Positions 1 through 3,949 of a DNA stretch of 24,924 nucleotides are shown here, one piece after another (the first letter of the stretch is position 1; each line of letters opens with the position of its first letter). The translations under genes and the position numbers were made by a program. Origin of the DNA: Patescibacteria group bacterium (GTDB lineage: Bacteria > Patescibacteriota > CPR2 > UBA1875 > JAJYID01); assembly GCA_038061315.1 (NCBI GenBank), contig JBBTZO010000044.1:1-24924 (forward strand). Direction: 5' to 3'. The notes below the pieces were generated by a model, which saw only the letters and a list, made by a program, of their open reading frames with translations, had not been told where the DNA came from and ran no database searches.

Positions 1-72
1 TTTCATCTCCTTTCATTTTAGATGAATGTGTCCAAGATGTTCGATGCCTTAAGATGAAAACAAAGAATATTC

Positions 73-101
73 TTGACTTGGGGATAAAAAGGGGCTATAA
101 T
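73..101 (+). promoter_or_regulatory. sigma70-type promoter P1
   Basis: TTGACT (73-78), 17-nt spacer, TATAAT (96-101); predicted start about 108. Confidence 0.8.
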
Positions 102-107
102 CTATTG

Positions 108-620
108 GCTTTAAAAATTTCATAAAGTTTTTAAATCGTGGGTTGCTGGAAGGATTAAACGCCTCTTTTCCAAATATTCCAATCAGATTCTGTGCGGAGA
201 CAAAATATGAGCTCATCAAACCAGGTGAGCAAGTTGAGGTAAAGACAGCGCCAACCGGCAACCCCACCAATTCACAGTACCTTTTTAAAAGCGTTGGTTG
301 GACGTTTTTAGTCTGACCGCGGCTCCAGACAACATTGCTCTAGCAGGGTCTGGAGTAGTGTCTTTGAAGCTCTTTATGGGTTTCAGAGGCTGGCGGTAGA
401 ACGGGCGGCCCCTCTGTAAGTTTAGCCTCCCCCATGGGGGGCCGCCCAAGCTTTTGACTTGAGAGAATTCTCAAGTAACAAGCGCTAAGGAGGTACAACC
501 TCTTTAACGGTTGTTGGGTAGTTGATACCCCTCAACCTCCCCAGTGCGGCGGCCCCGGGAAGAGGTCGCCGCACAAAATCTAAGCCTTCAAGGTTTCACA
601 AGAAGCCAAGAGGGCTTTTT
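108..620 (+). ncRNA. candidate large structured non-coding RNA, family not recognised
   Basis: Bounded by P1 and a hairpin plus T-run. About ten helices, e.g. 138-149/255-267, 287-294/302-309, 316-320/393-397, 322-330/348-356, 362-372/378-388, 403-412/438-447, 457-464/469-476, 544-554/564-574. No convincing SD-led ORF. Confidence 0.6.
582..620 (+). terminator. probable intrinsic terminator of unit 1
   Basis: AAGCCTTC (582-589) or AAGCC (603-607) pairs with GAGGGCTT/GGCTT (610-617), followed by a T-run to 620. Confidence 0.5.
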
Positions 621-698
621 ACATTTTAAAAACTAATTTACTACTTTAGTTTAGTGAAGTACTTAGTAATATTTTAAGTGGTCCTATAGATAAAATTA

Positions 699-727
699 TT
701 TACATATAAAACATAAGGACTTAGAAT
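699..727 (+). promoter_or_regulatory. sigma70-type promoter P2
   Basis: TTTACA (699-704), 17 nt, TAGAAT (722-727). Confidence 0.6.
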
Positions 728-791
728 AAAAACAACTAAGAGATGTACCTTTTCTACGAAACCAAATAAATATATAGGAGGTTAATCCTAG

Positions 792-944
792 ATGACTATT
801 CAGTTAACTACTCGGTCAGACCTCTATGAGTTTCCGGACGGAAATGGTCCCAATGGATTCTATATTCCTGTAGGGGGAGAGGAGGAACCCGCCTCAGACC
901 CAGAAATAATACTTCCATTATGGAATCCTGACCAGACTCACTGA
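792..944 (+). CDS. 50-aa acidic Pro/Gly-rich micro-protein (MTIQLTTRSDLYEFPDGNGPNGFYIPVGGEEEPASDPEIILPLWNPDQTH)
   Basis: AGGAGGT (776-782) 9 nt before ATG, downstream of P2; below the ORF-track cut-off; no recognisable family. Confidence 0.5.
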   Translation: MTIQLTTRSDLYEFPDGNGPNGFYIPVGGEEEPASDPEIILPLWNPDQTH

Positions 945-1087
945 TGATTTGTCTAGGCATCCACTGGCCACTTATAGTCTATTCCTCGGTCGAATATACT
1001 GCCAGTGCCAGACACCTTCACCTCCCAGGTCCGCTTGCGCTTGTAAGATATAAGATTCCCTGCGCAGGCGGACCGCCCGCTCCTTAA
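944..1087 (+). CDS. possible 47-aa ORF coupled by a TGATG overlap (MICLGIHWPLIV...GGPPAP)
   Basis: ATG shares base 944 with the upstream stop, but the ORF lies within strong RNA hairpins and may be non-coding. Confidence 0.2.
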   Translation: MICLGIHWPLIVYSSVEYTASARHLHLPGPLALVRYKIPCAGGPPAP

Positions 1088-1101
1088 ATCCATAATAATT
1101 A

Positions 1102-1126
1102 CGGCCCTCATTCTGAGGGTTGTTTT
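1102..1126 (+). terminator. probable intrinsic terminator of unit 2
   Basis: CGGCCCTCA-TTC-TGAGGGTTG followed by TTTT. Confidence 0.55.
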
Positions 1127-1142
1127 AATTTATAAAAAACTA

Positions 1143-1172
1143 TTTACTAACATAAGGGCTTCTTTATATAAT
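1143..1172 (+). promoter_or_regulatory. sigma70-type promoter P3
   Basis: TTTACT (1143-1148), 18 nt, TATAAT (1167-1172); spacer motif shared with P2. Confidence 0.55.
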
Positions 1173-1270
1173 AAAACTATCAGGGCTAACCAACATATGG
1201 AGGTGATCTAAAGCACACCTGCACGTCCTTTGAAAAGTTAGCCGAAAAGAGGTATAGATAGGGAGGGTCA

Positions 1271-1390
1271 ATGGGTAAGTACACGTTTGCAAGTAGCCGT
1301 AACACCAAGGTGAGGACCGTCCTGATCTCTGGCAGCCGTATGCACGCGAAACGCATCATCGACACGATCGTCGCCAGCGGAAGGGCCTAG
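1271..1390 (+). CDS. 39-aa basic micro-protein (MGKYTFASSRNTKVRTVLISGSRMHAKRIIDTIVASGRA)
   Basis: GGGAGG (1261-1266) just upstream of ATG; open to TAG at 1388-1390. Confidence 0.5.
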   Translation: MGKYTFASSRNTKVRTVLISGSRMHAKRIIDTIVASGRA

Positions 1391-1472
1391 GCAAGCAGCA
1401 TTAGGCCACCCCTAGCGCGAGGGGGAGAATAATTAAACGCGCAGTACGCATACACCCTACCAGGGAGGTACT

Positions 1473-1505
1473 ATGGTAGTGATTTATGTACTCGGTGGTG
1501 GTTGA
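1473..1505 (+). CDS. 10-aa leader-peptide-like ORF (MVVIYVLGGG)
   Basis: GGGAGGT (1463-1469) then ATG at 1473; ends GGT GGT GGT TGA within a 13-bp hairpin. Confidence 0.3.
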   Translation: MVVIYVLGGG

Positions 1506-1641
1506 TAGTTAACCACCACCGAGAGTTTCTCGGAAAGAGGAGTGAGGCGGGGCTCTCTAGATTTTCTTGTTTCAAGTCAGTGGCTTGACGAGAATGTAAT
1601 TCTAGAGAGCACCCCCTTCTCATTCATATACAAACGCACCT

Positions 1642-1680
1642 AAAAGAAAGGACGGCATGAGCCGTCCTGAATTATTTTTC
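1642..1680. terminator. GC-rich hairpin terminator, possibly bidirectional
   Basis: AGGACGGC-ATGA-GCCGTCCT (1649-1668); adjacent U-tract on the - strand, displaced U-tract on the + strand. Confidence 0.55.
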
Positions 1681-1721
1681 CTACATTTATAGGAACTTTT
1701 TTATTTTTGGTATTTTACTTA

Positions 1722-1750
1722 TTAACAAAAGAGTCTTTTGCTATTACAAT
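1722..1750 (+). promoter_or_regulatory. promoter of the PBP gene
   Basis: TTAACA (1722-1727), 17 nt, TACAAT (1745-1750); inverted repeat CAAAAG-AGT-CTTTTG at 1726-1740. Confidence 0.5.
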
Positions 1751-1771
1751 TATATCTAGCAATAATCTTTA

Positions 1772-3949
1772 ATGAAATTATTTGATATGATTGAGGGTGA
1801 ACACGAATCTCAAGACAAAAACCTAAAGCATCACAAACAAAAAAAAGCGAGCAGCAGCAAAAAGATCGCGAAACAGTGGTGGGTTGTTTTTAAGCATATT
1901 TTATCAAAAACCTTTGCGGTTATTGGTAGAACTCTTTTAATATTTTTTATCATACTATTTTTAACGGGTAGTTTTTTTACTATTGGAATCTATTTCAAAT
2001 ATGCGAATGATTTTAAAGGAGCTAAACCAAAAACGGGAGGTACCCAAGCTATCTTCTATGATAAAAACGGGGGGGTGATATATGAAGGTTTTGGAACCAG
2101 TGATCCCGACTACGTTTCTCTGGATCAAGTCCCTGATATTATAAAAAAGGCTACTCTTGCAGCCGAAGATAAGGGTTTTTATCACCATGGACCCGTAGAT
2201 GTGAAGGGTATTGCCAGAGCAGCACTTAGAAACTATCAGGCAAGCGATAGGGCAGGTGTAGCAAAACTATCCGGACTTTTCAGCGAAAGTGAATACTCAC
2301 AGGGTGGGTCAAGCATCACCCAACAGCTTGTAAAGAATAGATATCTTGCAGGCGAAAAAAGCTTTGAGAGAAAGCTAAAAGAGCTCGTTTACTCATACGA
2401 ACTGGAAAAGAAAATGAGTAAAGACCAGATACTTGAGCAATATCTAAATAATATTTATTATGGTGAACAATCGTTGGGAATAAAAAATGCCGCAAAAATA
2501 TATTTTGGCAAAGAACTAAAAGATTTGAGCCTGGCAGAAGCCACATATCTTGCTGGTCTTCCAGCAGCTCCCAGTAGATACTCACTCATCAGTGGTGACT
2601 ATGAAGCCGGTAAGAAAAGGCATGAGTATGTTCTGCAACAAATGATAGAAGAAAAATATATTACAGAGGAACAGGGAAGAGAGGCTGTTAACCAACCCCT
2701 AACACTAGGTAGTGAGCAAAAAGTAACTATTAAATATCCTTATTTTGTCCAGTATGTGAAGCAAGAGCTCATAAATATGTACGGTTCAGAACTTGTCGAG
2801 ACAGGGGGTCTAAAAGTTTACACAACGATTGATCCTGAAAAACAGGATTTAGCCGAAGCAAAAGCAAAAGAGTATGTAAATAAATTTAAGTATGCACGGG
2901 TAACAAATGCCTCTGTTGTCATTATGGATAACAAAACGAATAATGTTTTAGCAATGGTCGGCGGAGTCGATTGGGAAAAAAGCAAAGTAAATGTTGCAAC
3001 CTCAAAGAGACAACCCGGTTCATCATTTAAACCAATTGTATACTCCGCCGGATTCTTACAAGAATACTCACCGTTAACAAAACTTATAGATCAGCCAATA
3101 AACTTTGGCGGCATTCCTCCATATATACCCAGAAACTATAATGGTGGCTTTATGGGAAATATATCAGCAAGGAATGCTTTGGCAAACTCATTAAATATAC
3201 CAACCGTAGAAATGGGGAAGCTTGCCGGTATAGAAAATATTGTAAAGACTGCCGAAGCCATGGGTATAACAACCCTAGATAGAGACCCCGATGACTATGG
3301 GCTTTCTTTATCTTTAGGAAGTGGTGAAGTTAAACTACTCGACCTCGTTGAGGCCTATGCAACTCTTTCTGATGGCGGAAAACGTACAGTACCATCAGGA
3401 ATCGTAAAGATTTTAAACAACAGAGATGAAAGTATCTATAAAATAGAAAGACAGAAAAAAGAAGTTCTTGACCCCAGAGTTGCATATATGACTACAAGTA
3501 TTTTGTCCGACACAAAGGCTCGACAGAAAATTTTCGGATATGGGAATAAGCTTGAAATCAAAGGACATACCGTAGCGGCCAAAACAGGAACAACCGACAA
3601 CTATACTGACTCATGGACGGTTGGCTACAACCCTGATATCACAGTTGGTGTTTGGATGGGAAATAACGATAGAAGTAAGATGGGACAAATAAGTGGTATA
3701 GAGGGCGCTGCATATATATGGCATGATATACTTGAAGGAATTATTAAAAATCAACCGGATATTGCTTTTGAAAAACCAAAGGGTTTGAGCGAAGTTTGGG
3801 TCAATCCTTCAACATTTGCCAAAGCACCAAAAGAAGGAAGTCCTTATGTACTGGAGTACTTTTTACCGGGAAAAGAACCATCTACTAAGCCGGACTTTTC
3901 CTATCTAAACCAATTTAATAAGAAGGCAAGTGTACCAAAAAATCCCTAA
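1772..3949 (+). CDS. class A penicillin-binding protein (transglycosylase-transpeptidase, PBP1A family)
   Basis: N-terminal TM helix; transglycosylase motifs AEDKGFYHH, GGSSITQQLVKN, RKLKE; transpeptidase motifs SSFK, SLN, KTGT. Confidence 0.95.
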   Translation: MKLFDMIEGEHESQDKNLKHHKQKKASSSKKIAKQWWVVFKHILSKTFAVIGRTLLIFFIILFLTGSFFTIGIYFKYANDFKGAKPKTGGTQAIFYDKNGGVIYEGFGTSDPDYVSLDQVPDIIKKATLAAEDKGFYHHGPVDVKGIARAALRNYQASDRAGVAKLSGLFSESEYSQGGSSITQQLVKNRYLAGEKSFERKLKELVYSYELEKKMSKDQILEQYLNNIYYGEQSLGIKNAAKIYFGKELKDLSLAEATYLAGLPAAPSRYSLISGDYEAGKKRHEYVLQQMIEEKYITEEQGREAVNQPLTLGSEQKVTIKYPYFVQYVKQELINMYGSELVETGGLKVYTTIDPEKQDLAEAKAKEYVNKFKYARVTNASVVIMDNKTNNVLAMVGGVDWEKSKVNVATSKRQPGSSFKPIVYSAGFLQEYSPLTKLIDQPINFGGIPPYIPRNYNGGFMGNISARNALANSLNIPTVEMGKLAGIENIVKTAEAMGITTLDRDPDDYGLSLSLGSGEVKLLDLVEAYATLSDGGKRTVPSGIVKILNNRDESIYKIERQKKEVLDPRVAYMTTSILSDTKARQKIFGYGNKLEIKGHTVAAKTGTTDNYTDSWTVGYNPDITVGVWMGNNDRSKMGQISGIEGAAYIWHDILEGIIKNQPDIAFEKPKGLSEVWVNPSTFAKAPKEGSPYVLEYFLPGKEPSTKPDFSYLNQFNKKASVPKNP

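What the first reader, a model, noticed from the sequence alone, without database searches (positions are those of the whole stretch)
73..1680. Three tandem promoter-to-terminator units without long ORFs, two sharing a promoter motif
1.6 kb upstream of the PBP gene is organised as three units of about 400-500 nt (108-620, ~734-1126, ~1179-1680). Each has a sigma70 promoter, a structured body and a terminal hairpin, and they are separated by AT-rich spacers. P2 and P3 share TATTTAC (697-703, 1141-1147) and AACATAAGG(A/G)CTT (710-722, 1149-1161; 12/13 identical), suggesting duplication or a common regulator. Standard annotation would leave the region empty. It may be a co-regulated cluster of structured RNAs and micro-proteins, the best candidate here for an undescribed system.
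Basis: partly seen in the sequence, partly recalled or inferred. Interest (0 to 1): 0.72.

Follow-up and report, generated by a model that had tools for sequence, protein, structure and literature searches.

The report
Cluster of three structured RNA genes
Upstream of a cell-wall enzyme gene in an ultra-small groundwater bacterium lie three self-contained, GC-rich genes for tightly folded RNAs: two belong to uncatalogued, fast-evolving RNA families shared with close relatives and one is a unique small-protein gene, and what they do is still unknown.

Summary
Window 73-1708 contains three GC-rich (50-60%) islands in a 39% GC Patescibacteria genome (WS5/WWE3-like, Hainich groundwater). Each has a near-consensus promoter and a terminator hairpin. 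All three fold far better than shuffles (z -9.0, -3.6, -5.5).

Unit 1 belongs to a roughly 250-540-nt RNA family found at the same place in at least 7 relatives. Primary sequence is barely alignable, but the helices are kept by compensatory changes (8 of 11 pairs in one stem, 0/500 shuffles).

Unit 3 belongs to a second family.

Unit 2 is unique to this genome. It has a 50-aa orphan ORF with native codon usage, and its ribosome site is predicted to pair with a C-rich word in its own 3' UTR.

None matches Rfam, Pfam or phage DNA. Unit number varies from 0 to 3 among relatives, so this is not an obligate three-part system. Function is unknown and no expression data could be obtained.

The scan has noted similar orphan GC-rich RNA islands in other Patescibacteria, but none alike in sequence.

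The parts
73..101 (+). P1 promoter of unit 1 (TTGACT, 17 nt, TATAAT)
   Evidence: One search gives 11/12 matches. The -35 and the following 12 nt are identical or nearly so in G001, L013, L107, L108, L111 and G007.
108..627 (+). Unit 1 (U1): about 520-nt non-coding RNA, member of the 'unit A' family; predicted start near 108, terminator hairpin plus U-run at 582-627
   Evidence: Folding z is -8.96. It has no Rfam match. It shares an ordered set of helices with 7 relatives.
140..264 (+). H1: long-range stem of unit 1 (140-150 with 254-264) enclosing a variable apical domain
   Evidence: Alignment A7 of 8 sequences: 98.9% of cells paired, 8 of 11 pairs changed on both sides, 0/500 shuffles reach this, and slid controls give 21-42% paired.
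296..318 (+). H2 hairpin of unit 1 (296-303 with 311-318)
   Evidence: Read from the sequence and compared with the TTGAGG...CCTCAA hairpins of relatives. Not counted formally.
323..355 (+). H3 hairpin of unit 1: covarying outer stem, conserved apical stem-loop TTGCTCTAGCAGG (335-347)
   Evidence: Model R1, built from L107, finds it at 323-354 with E 0.022. Alignment A8: 4 pairs and 8 cells changed on both sides; the covariation score is reached by 0/500 shuffles.
403..447 (+). H5: large G+C hairpin of unit 1. A hairpin sits at this position in all relatives but with unrelated sequence.
   Evidence: Homology is positional only, so it was not used as covariation evidence.
699..727 (+). P2 promoter of unit 2, containing the shared motif at 710-722
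   Evidence: No counterpart was found in any relative.
734..1135 (+). Unit 2 (U2): orphan transcript; 5' UTR, 50-aa ORF, about 190-nt structured 3' UTR, terminator 1101-1123 plus T-run
   Evidence: Folding z is -3.56. No nucleotide similarity to other units reaches significance.
776..782 (+). Shine-Dalgarno AGGAGGT of the unit 2 ORF
   Evidence: It lies 9 nt before the ATG at 792. Bases 777-782 are predicted to pair with 1020-1025 at p 0.80-0.90.
792..944 (+). 50-aa acidic ORF of unit 2 (orphan)
   Evidence: Called by the assemblies' gene caller. Its codon score of 0.227 lies within true-gene windows (mean 0.303, sd 0.138). No homologue was found in 32 genomes of the class or in 5.8 billion proteins. 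No Pfam match.
1019..1026 (+). C-rich anti-Shine-Dalgarno-like word CACCTCCC in the unit 2 3' UTR, followed by a G+C hairpin (1028-1074)
   Evidence: pairing probability with the ribosome site about 0.9; the same pairing appears in the MFE and centroid structures.
1143..1172 (+). P3 promoter of unit 3, containing the shared motif at 1149-1161 directly after the -35
   Evidence: It is the only part of the query that BLAST finds in relatives. The pattern occurs about once per genome, in 5 of 9 genomes of this family and once elsewhere in the order.
1179..1708 (+). Unit 3 (U3): about 530-nt RNA of the 'unit B' family; a structured RNA with short ORFs
   Evidence: Folding z is -5.45. Promoter, 5' words, ORF start and 3' end are shared with relatives. 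A profile built from the other members hits 1631-1708 with E 0.003.
1199..1207 (+). GGAGGTGAT: perfect complement of the 16S rRNA 3' tail, 20 nt from the predicted 5' end, with no start codon in register
   Evidence: It or a one-base variant occurs at the same place in L111, L107, G005, G001 and L109, with no consistent ORF behind it.
1261..1390 (+). Shine-Dalgarno (1261-1268) and 39-aa ORF (1271-1390) of unit 3
   Evidence: GC at codon positions 1/2/3 is 0.41/0.54/0.77, against a genome GC3 of 0.36 +/- 0.06. The same phase bias is seen in 6 family members. The ribosome site is predicted paired to 1316-1323 at p 0.88-0.97.
1463..1505 (+). Second Shine-Dalgarno-led mini-ORF (10 codons), overlapping a perfect 15-bp hairpin (1491-1523)
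   Evidence: Relatives carry 4-6-codon mini-ORFs after a strong ribosome site.
1649..1708 (+). Double terminator of unit 3: hairpin 1649-1668, conserved tail 1669-1680, second hairpin and T-run 1678-1708
1722..1750 (+). The PBP1A gene's own promoter (context, not part of the units)
   Evidence: It is conserved in 10 relatives, including those lacking one unit.

Best explanation
The 1.6 kb is a plastic intergenic locus holding three independent transcription units, all on the + strand. Each gives a stable, compactly folded RNA of about 400-530 nt.

Shown:
- Unit 1 is the local member of a family-restricted non-coding RNA ('unit A'). Its helices are held by compensatory substitutions while its sequence turns over quickly.
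- Unit 3 shares its conserved promoter, 5' words, ORF start and 3' end with the relatives' 'unit B' RNAs.
- Unit 2 is found only in this genome.

Inferred:
- Unit 1 acts in trans as a folded RNA, most likely as a binding partner or scaffold for a protein.
- Unit 3 is a dual-function RNA. A 5'-proximal word complementary to the 16S 3' tail recruits 30S subunits and protects the transcript from 5' decay, as STAB-SD-type stabilisers do.
- Its short ORF is translated, but its ribosome site is masked by folding.
- The ORF's third codon positions are driven to G/C by selection on RNA stability, not by the genome's codon usage.
- Unit 2 is a recent small-protein gene, possibly assembled by partial duplication from a P3-like promoter and a unit-A-like 3' module.
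- Translation of unit 2 is throttled by pairing of its ribosome site with a C-rich word in its own 3' UTR, as in icaR mRNA.

The units are accessory, not housekeeping. Odds: that units 1 and 3 are genuine RNA genes, about 0.8. That unit 2 encodes a real peptide, about 0.55. That the specific ribosome-engaging mechanisms are right, about 0.3.
For: Discrete units are supported. Synteny and conserved promoters, with bodies that BLAST cannot align at 85% PBP identity, come.

Unit A: stem H1 is 98.9% paired with 8/11 compensatory pairs (0/500 shuffles; slid controls 21-42%). Hairpin H3 has 8 compensatory cells (0/500) and was found in U1 by a model built from L107. Wobble G-U pairs in both helices would be A-C mismatches on the other strand, which supports the + strand.

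Folding z is -3 to -13 for 12 of the 13 relatives' units tested.

Unit B features are shown. Ribosome-site masking probabilities are 0.9-0.97. The unit 2 ORF has native codon usage.

RNase P RNA and tmRNA are present elsewhere in the genome, so the units are additional RNAs.

Published analogies: initiating ribosomes at strong ribosome sites block RNase J1 (PMC5737220); a 3'-UTR C-rich word pairs with the ribosome site in icaR (PMC3868564).
Against: No RNA evidence exists: no transcript starts, ends or abundance were measured.

Sequence-only profiles built from relatives do not recover U1 and recover only the 3' end of U3. Membership therefore rests on synteny, promoters and a few helices.

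U3 lacks the CCTGCGCAC 5' hairpin that most unit B members have.

The unit B peptides are only 15-33% identical and range from 4 to 58 codons. That is poor conservation for a functional protein.

Unit 2 has no relative at all, so nothing about it could be tested by comparison. Its similarity to the unit 1 3' module is not significant (E 4-12).

The C-rich and GGGAGG words are not universal within unit A.

No partner protein is conserved next to the units. Their presence or absence in close relatives shows they are dispensable.
Confidence: 0.62

Rival explanations
1. All three units are primarily small-protein genes, that is mRNAs with unusually long structured UTRs. The conserved helices serve only mRNA stability and translation control, and there is no trans-acting RNA.
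For: Strong ribosome site plus ATG in units 2 and 3 and in every unit B relative. Codon-phase GC bias in six ORFs. Native codon score for the unit 2 ORF. Masked ribosome sites, typical of regulated mRNAs.
Against: Unit 1 and its whole family have no ribosome-site-led conserved ORF. In G001, L013, L107 and L113 the unit B ORF is only 4-5 codons long, while the roughly 400 nt of structure behind it is kept. The peptides are barely conserved.
Confidence: 0.17
2. The units, at least unit 3, are a cis-acting leader or attenuator of the PBP1A gene. Translation of the rare-codon short ORF decides whether the double terminator forms, and so how much transcription reads through into the PBP gene.
For: Unit B lies directly upstream of PBP1A in G000, G001, L013, L107, L109, L111, L113 and G005. 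It has a short ORF with atypical codons. The terminators abut the PBP promoter.
Against: PBP1A keeps its own conserved promoter in all relatives, including L108 and L110 without unit B; in L014/L015 the PBP gene follows the upstream gene directly, with no units. Units driven by the P3-type promoter sit elsewhere in G004 (before a helicase gene) and in G002 and G006 (before a convergent gene). The ORF lies about 260 nt from the first terminator. There are two consecutive terminators.
Confidence: 0.08
3. The islands are remnants of foreign or decayed DNA (pseudogenes, or mobile-element or phage fragments) with no present function. The hairpins are leftovers or selfish palindromes.
For: GC content is far above the genome's. 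Gain, loss and relocation occur among close relatives. Bodies diverge fast.
Against: Compensatory substitutions maintain the helices. Promoters, including their spacers, are conserved across genera. Ten ORFs of 39-73 aa from the region gave no Pfam match, and there is no similarity to 50,697 phage records. No repeats of the units occur elsewhere in the genome. Relatives without the units have no gene in their place.
Confidence: 0.08
4. One of the units is a strongly diverged housekeeping RNA (SRP RNA or 6S RNA) that standard models miss in this lineage.
For: Neither SRP RNA model nor the 6S model finds anything in five genomes of the family. The size, the strong promoter and the terminator would suit a housekeeping RNA.
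Against: The Ffh M domain and the SRP54-type GTPase domain are also not found, so there is no SRP protein to bind such an RNA. The units are absent from some relatives (L014/L015) and vary in number. No weak SRP or 6S hit appears in 1-1800 even at E up to 10. They do not form a single long 6S-like hairpin.
Confidence: 0.04

Closest known systems
Orphan structured ncRNAs found as long GC-rich intergenic regions in AT-rich genomes (GC-IGR approach, Stav et al. 2019, PMC6429828; large examples are OLE, GOLLD, ROOL and raiA)
   Same: A GC-rich island in an AT-rich small genome. Own promoter and terminator, many hairpins, covariation, no function inferable from neighbouring genes.
   Different: No match to any of the 4227 Rfam models, including those families. 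Restricted to one small family of Patescibacteria. Much faster sequence turnover. Present as a tandem cluster whose unit number varies.
STAB-SD / ribosome-mediated 5' stabilisers of Gram-positive mRNAs (cryIIIA STAB-SD and hbs; PMC5737220)
   Same: A perfect Shine-Dalgarno-like word near the 5' end of unit B that is not followed by a consistent start codon. It is suited to binding the 16S 3' tail and blocking 5' exonuclease.
   Different: It is partly paired in the predicted fold. It sits on an RNA that is mostly non-coding. Neither the presence of RNase J in this organism nor any stabilising effect was tested here.
icaR-type 5' UTR / 3' UTR pairing in Staphylococcus aureus (PMC3868564)
   Same: A C-rich anti-Shine-Dalgarno word in the 3' UTR of unit 2 is predicted to pair with the ribosome site of its own ORF (p about 0.9).
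   Different: This is a prediction from one sequence, with no comparative or experimental support. The ORF is a 50-aa orphan, not a regulator with a known role.
Dual-function sRNAs with a small ORF (RNAIII/hld, SgrS/SgrT, SR1/SR1P; from general knowledge)
   Same: A structured RNA of several hundred nt carrying a short translated ORF.
   Different: No target-pairing region was identified. The peptide is poorly conserved and shrinks to 4-5 codons in several members.
Leader-peptide attenuators and mini-ORF leaders (thr/his leaders, erm/cat leaders; from general knowledge)
   Same: A short ribosome-site-led ORF with atypical codons upstream of terminator hairpins.
   Different: The downstream gene has its own promoter. 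The unit also occurs away from that gene. The ORF is far from the terminators.

Membership tests
Any Rfam 15 family (including RNase P, tmRNA, SRP, 6S, OLE, GOLLD, ROOL, raiA, HEARO) | Covariance-model score at or above the family's gathering score | tested here: not met
   0 hits at gathering score in the window. In 1-1800 at E up to 10, only noise far below the cut-offs. No hits over the units in 17 relatives' loci; the only matches were tRNAs elsewhere in two loci.
tmRNA / RNase P RNA | Being the genome's copy of that RNA | tested here: not met
   Canonical tmRNA lies at C35:10141-10532 and RNase P RNA at C62:12027-12448, and likewise in 4 relatives. ARAGORN finds nothing in the window.
Unit A RNA family (defined here) | P1-type promoter (TTGACTTG..GATA, then TATAMT) at the first position of the locus | tested here: met
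   U1 has the promoter with 18/18 bases identical to G001 and about 30 nt identical to L108.
Unit A RNA family (defined here) | Long-range stem H1 with core GGGYYGCYGG / CCRGCRRCCC near the 5' end | tested here: met
   Window 140-150 with 254-264. Across 8 sequences, 98.9% of cells are paired and 8/11 pairs are compensatory.
Unit A RNA family (defined here) | H3 hairpin with apical stem-loop YTGCTCCAGCRGG and a covarying outer stem | tested here: met
   Window 323-355. The motif is altered or absent in L110, L111 and G007, so it defines a subgroup rather than the whole family.
Unit A RNA family (defined here) | Detectable primary-sequence homology of the body | tested here: not met
   Single-sequence nhmmer and a profile of 7 members do not find U1. 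BLAST finds only the promoters.
Unit B RNA family (defined here) | P3-type promoter TTGACWAACRTAA...TGNTATAAT | tested here: met
   1143-1172 is a variant with TTTACT and an 18-nt spacer. BLAST hits to G001 and G013 fall on this stretch.
Unit B RNA family (defined here) | 5' hairpin CCTGCGCAC ... GTGCGCAGG | tested here: not met
   U3 instead has GGCTAAC (1184-1190) paired with GTTAGCC (1237-1243).
Unit B RNA family (defined here) | The word GGAGGTGAT near the 5' end, a strong ribosome-site-led short ORF about 100-170 nt from the start, and a double terminator abutting the PBP promoter | tested here: met
   1199-1207, 1261-1390 and 1649-1708.
Cis-regulatory leader or riboswitch of PBP1A | The downstream gene depends on the leader's promoter, and the element is always attached to that gene | tested here: not met
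   The PBP gene's own promoter is conserved in 10 relatives. Units with the P3-type promoter sit elsewhere in G004, G002 and G006. PBP occurs without units in L014/L015.
Type I toxin-antitoxin | A small hydrophobic membrane peptide plus an overlapping antisense RNA | tested here: not met
   The 50-aa peptide is acidic and the 39-aa peptide basic and hydrophilic; neither has a hydrophobic span (translations). Only weak antisense promoter-like sites occur.
icaR-like 5'/3' UTR masking (works-like claim for unit 2) | A 3' UTR word complementary to the ribosome site that pairs with it | tested here: inconclusive
   Predicted pairing of 777-782 with 1020-1025 at p 0.80-0.90.
STAB-SD-like stabiliser (works-like claim for unit 3) | A 5'-proximal Shine-Dalgarno-like word that binds 30S without initiating translation and prolongs RNA half-life | not testable with these tools
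   Only the sequence feature and its conservation in 6 of 9 members could be shown.

The most novel reading that the evidence does not exclude
Units A and B are two paralogous members of a new class of ribosome-engaging accessory RNAs in a Patescibacteria lineage in which no SRP component was detected. Each would be a roughly 0.5-kb ultra-stable RNA carrying Shine-Dalgarno and anti-Shine-Dalgarno words and mini-ORFs. They would titrate or programme ribosomes, or sense translation capacity through rare-codon ORFs, and so stand in for protein regulators lost from a 1-Mb genome. Their rapid turnover and their gain and loss would reflect an arms race or host adaptation.
Probability: 0.12. Interest if true: 0.78.

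Novelty: new member of a known kind. Interest (0 to 1): 0.5.

Why it matters
Patescibacteria have tiny genomes with few recognisable regulators. This locus nevertheless spends 1.6 kb, about 0.2% of a genome of roughly 0.6-1 Mb, on strongly promoted, very stable RNAs.

The work defines two RNA families that are missing from Rfam, with base-pair covariation shown for one of them. That gives annotators something to place in an apparently empty region. It also gives experimenters concrete targets: transcript mapping, partner pull-downs and small-peptide detection.

The locus is a clean example of RNA genes whose structure is conserved while their sequence is almost unalignable at 85% identity of the neighbouring protein. 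This is why sequence-based searches miss them.

The anomalous GC3 of the embedded ORFs would, if confirmed, be a textbook case of overlapping selection on RNA stability and on coding.

The function remains unknown. Similar orphan islands are common in this phylum, so the finding is solid but incremental.

Tried and rejected
- Expression: the look-up of sequencing runs (kind rna) listed no RNA holder, so no reads were laid.
- Sequence searches: BLAST of the 1.6 kb against 40 relatives, and of G001's units against the order, found only promoters. Single-sequence nhmmer and profiles failed to link U1-U3 to relatives except at 1631-1708. The database for one search lacked the later loci.
- Alignment: MAFFT alignments of whole units, or of H2-H3 together, were not structurally correct. 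I therefore aligned single helices from end to end.
- Model R1: a single-sequence covariance model of L107 H2-H6 put hairpins in the wrong register in most relatives. Only its H3 hit in the window was used.
- Housekeeping-RNA hypotheses: tmRNA and RNase P were rejected because canonical genes exist elsewhere. SRP RNA was rejected because there is no weak hit and no Ffh or FtsY either. For 6S there is no hit anywhere.
- Pseudogene or phage fragment: no Pfam match for 10 ORFs of the region, and no phage similarity.
- Unit 2: no peptide homologue. blastn with short words against all other units gave nothing significant.
- Peptides: the alignment of unit B peptides showed only 15-33% identity, so no protein family is claimed.
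- Motif at C69:209: judged a chance hit in front of a minus-strand gene.
- Earlier scan notes: no look-alike stretch in other genomes.
- Literature: two searches found no description of these RNAs.
Also.
Full report
ORIGIN AND SETTING

The window is the whole of contig C44 of a 610-kb, 71-contig, 79%-complete genome with 39% GC. Four independent assemblies from Hainich groundwater well H41 carry bases 1-1771 without a single difference, and three of them begin at window base 1; the fourth begins 25 nt later. The nearest named relatives of its PBP1A protein are 'candidate division WS5', WWE3 and other Patescibacteria.

Downstream of the region lie PBP1A (1772-3949), a GAF-PAS histidine kinase, a response regulator and RecO.

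THE OBSERVATION

- Composition. Three islands of 50-60% GC are separated by spacers of 24-32% GC.
- Promoters. The best promoter-like sites upstream of the PBP gene are the three named ones (73-101, 699-727, 1143-1172), all on the + strand. The PBP gene's own promoter is at 1722-1750.
- Ends. Hairpins followed by T-runs close each unit.
- Folding. The units fold 9.0, 3.6 and 5.5 standard deviations better than dinucleotide shuffles.
- Shared motif. The 13-mer shared by P2 and P3 is real and far above chance, with 3 hits at 1 mismatch or less against 0.13 expected. The two copies are the only exact ones in the genome.

Two corrections apply. Unit 3 continues through a second, conserved terminator to about 1708. 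Gene callers do call the 50-aa ORF at 792-944.

WHAT IT IS NOT

- Nothing in the window, nor any of the units in 17 homologous loci, reaches the gathering score of any of the 4227 Rfam families. At E up to 10, window 1-1800 gives only noise.
- ARAGORN finds no tRNA or tmRNA.
- The genome and four relatives have ordinary tmRNA and RNase P RNA genes elsewhere.
- Ten ORFs of 39-73 aa from the region have no Pfam match, and the DNA has no similarity to 50,697 phage records.
- The units are not repeated elsewhere in the genome.

COMPARATIVE ANATOMY

I collected the region upstream of the orthologous PBP1A gene from family genomes and from metagenome or Logan contigs with 65-85% PBP identity.

Three promoters recur:
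- P1: TTGACTTG..GATA, then TATAMT.
- The PBP promoter.

BLAST and nhmmer align almost nothing else between the window and its relatives, even at 85% PBP identity.

Unit content varies between relatives:
- A+B in G001, L013, L107 and L111.
- A only in L108 and L110.
- B only in L109. It shares with this window the divergent upstream gene start; its bases 86-133 match window 1-48.
- A short A in G007.
- None in L014/L015, where a ROK-family gene abuts the PBP gene.

Units with a P3-type promoter also sit at other places in G004, G002 and G006. A P1-type promoter heads a different GC-rich unit in genus g2. The P3 pattern occurs about once per genome. It was found in 5 of the 9 family genomes and once, with 2 mismatches, elsewhere among the 28 genomes of the order.

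UNIT 1 IS A STRUCTURED RNA OF THE 'UNIT A' FAMILY

Folding eight members separately shows the same order of elements:
1. A long-range stem, H1, near the 5' end.
2. An A/U-rich linker.
3. Hairpin H2.
4. Hairpin H3, with a conserved apical stem-loop.
5. A large G+C hairpin.
6. Variable hairpins.
7. A terminator.

I aligned H1 from end to end in eight sequences, with the window at 140-264. In that alignment 98.9% of cells form standard pairs and 8 of 11 pairs show changes on both sides. No shuffle out of 500 reaches the observed values. Sliding the partner strand by 1-3 columns drops pairing to 21-42%.

For H3, with the window at 323-355 and five sequences, 4 pairs and 8 cells changed on both sides, and the covariation score was reached by 0 of 500 shuffles. 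A covariance model built from L107 alone independently found H3 in the window at 323-354.

Several G-U pairs in both helices would be A-C mismatches on the opposite strand, so the RNA is on the + strand. Six unit A members from relatives have z-scores of -3 to -12.

The weak point is that primary-sequence methods do not connect U1 to the family. The eight sequences are also related to each other, so the shuffle counts are not probabilities.

UNIT 3 BELONGS TO THE 'UNIT B' FAMILY

Unit 3 shares these features with relatives:
- The P3 promoter.
- A 5' word, ATCAGGGCTAAC, against ATTAGGGTTAGC in G001.
- The word GGAGGTGAT at 1199-1207, a perfect complement of the 16S 3' tail. It or a one-base variant is found at the same place in L111, L107, G005, G001 and L109, with no consistent start codon behind it.
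- A strong ribosome site plus ATG about 100 nt from the predicted start.
- A terminator, then a conserved tail, then a second terminator abutting the PBP promoter.

A profile built from the other members hits 1631-1708 with E 0.003. Unit 3 lacks the CCTGCGCAC...GTGCGCAGG hairpin of most members.

The ORF behind the ribosome site ranges from 4-6 codons (the peptides MPFY, MGLRR, MKLKL, MKRSI and MKRLCS) to 25-58 codons. Where the ORF is long, its third codon positions are 67-92% G/C. In the window it is 77%, against 36 +/- 6% for 361 long ORFs of this genome. Positions 1 and 2 look ordinary.

The highest-GC phase coincides with codon position 3 in all six long ORFs. This argues that the frame is real. 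I read the G/C excess as RNA-stability selection acting on synonymous sites, which is an inference. The peptides themselves are only 15-33% identical. The ribosome site of the window's 39-aa ORF is predicted to be paired at p 0.88-0.97.

UNIT 2 IS AN ORPHAN

- No relative has it.
- Its 50-aa peptide has no match in 32 genomes of the class or among 5.8 billion clustered proteins.
- Its body has no significant similarity to any other unit.
- Its ORF has a consensus ribosome site, and its codon score is typical of this genome's genes, at the 28th percentile of true-gene windows.
- The ribosome site (777-782) is predicted, at p 0.80-0.90 and in both the MFE and centroid folds, to pair with ACCUCC at 1020-1025 in the 3' UTR. 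That pairing encloses the whole ORF.

The C-rich word plus G+C hairpin resembles the 3' module of unit 1 (531-574). The terminator and following bases resemble the G001 unit A terminator in front of P3. Neither resemblance is significant, so an origin by partial duplication is only a suggestion.

HOW IT MOST LIKELY WORKS

Shown:
- There are three discrete units.
- Their promoters are conserved.
- Unit A helices are held by compensatory change.
- Unit B has family-wide architecture.
- The units are dispensable and variable in number.

Inferred:
- Unit 1 acts as a folded trans-acting RNA, probably with a protein partner.
- The 16S-complementary word of unit 3 works like a STAB-SD or hbs-type ribosome-binding stabiliser (PMC5737220).
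- The short ORFs of units 3 and 2 are translated but kept low by ribosome-site masking. In unit 2 this would occur through a 5'/3' UTR interaction of the icaR kind (PMC3868564).

I give about 0.8 that units 1 and 3 are genuine RNA genes. I give 0.55 that unit 2 makes a peptide, and about 0.3 that the specific ribosome-related mechanisms are right.

RIVALS

- Pure small-protein mRNAs. Against this, unit A has no ORF, and unit B keeps its structure where the ORF is only 4-5 codons.
- A cis leader of PBP1A. Against this, the PBP gene has its own conserved promoter, units with the P3-type promoter occur elsewhere, and PBP occurs without units.
- Decayed or foreign DNA. Against this stand the covariation and the conserved promoters.
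- A diverged SRP or 6S RNA. Against this, Ffh and FtsY are also not detected, and the units are missing from some relatives.

COMPARISON WITH THE KNOWN, AND NOVELTY

The closest known kind is the orphan structured ncRNA found as a long GC-rich intergenic region in an AT-rich genome, as in the GC-IGR approach (PMC6429828). The two families are new to Rfam 15. I found no description of them in two literature searches.

Notes from this scan list many analogous orphan islands in other Patescibacteria. Those notes are unchecked. None is alike in sequence. I therefore rate this as a new member of a known kind, of moderate interest.

NO EXPRESSION DATA

No RNA run was listed for this sequence. Every transcript boundary in this report is a prediction.

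Noticed in passing
whole genome G000 and relatives G001, G004, G005, G006: No component of the signal recognition particle pathway was detected. SRP RNA models RF00169 and RF01854 hit 0 of 5 genomes. The Ffh M domain PF02978 hits 0 of 3. The SRP54-type GTPase domain PF00448 (Ffh and FtsY) hits 0 of 5 above cut-off. The controls rang in 14 of 14 well-known genomes for both protein domains, and in 12 and 7 of 14 for the two RNA models; four of the five genomes are 90-98% complete. SecA is present in the window. If real, this family lives without SRP.
   Followed up: partly
L097:1500-1970 (G002 C6) and L100:1500-2100 (G006 C23): A related unit sits downstream of two tRNA genes in two genera. It has a P3-type promoter, a 51- or 58-aa ORF with GC3 of 0.84-0.90, then a 4-codon mini-ORF (MPYP or MPFY) behind a strong ribosome site, and a well-conserved 3' hairpin domain.
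   Followed up: partly
L010, L011, L012 (genus g2: G008, G003, G006): A 370-410-nt GC-rich non-coding unit with a P1-type promoter (TTGACATGTGGA..., then TATACT) lies upstream of an 82-aa plus 415-aa gene pair that precedes PBP1A. It may be the unit A counterpart of that genus. It has no Rfam match.
   Followed up: partly
window 1-50 and L109:86-133: Three of the four assemblies of this organism break at window base 1; the fourth begins 25 nt later. The same divergent gene start (a minus-strand ATG near base 16) is present in L109, whose contig also ends about 85 nt further on. The upstream gene may be repeated or hard to assemble.
   Followed up: no
G000 C70:4412-4440 (L102:1501-1529): A P3-like promoter (2 mismatches to the pattern) precedes a protein gene with a signal-peptide-like N terminus. 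This promoter type is therefore not exclusive to the RNA units.
   Followed up: no
five genomes of the family: 6S RNA (RF00013) was not detected in any of the five genomes. The control rang in only 5 of 14 well-known genomes, so the model is insensitive.
   Followed up: no
window 617-660; C16:3419-3460; C33:2298-2325: The AT-rich spacer after unit 1 has short similar copies (84-93% over 28-44 nt) on two other contigs of the genome.
   Followed up: no
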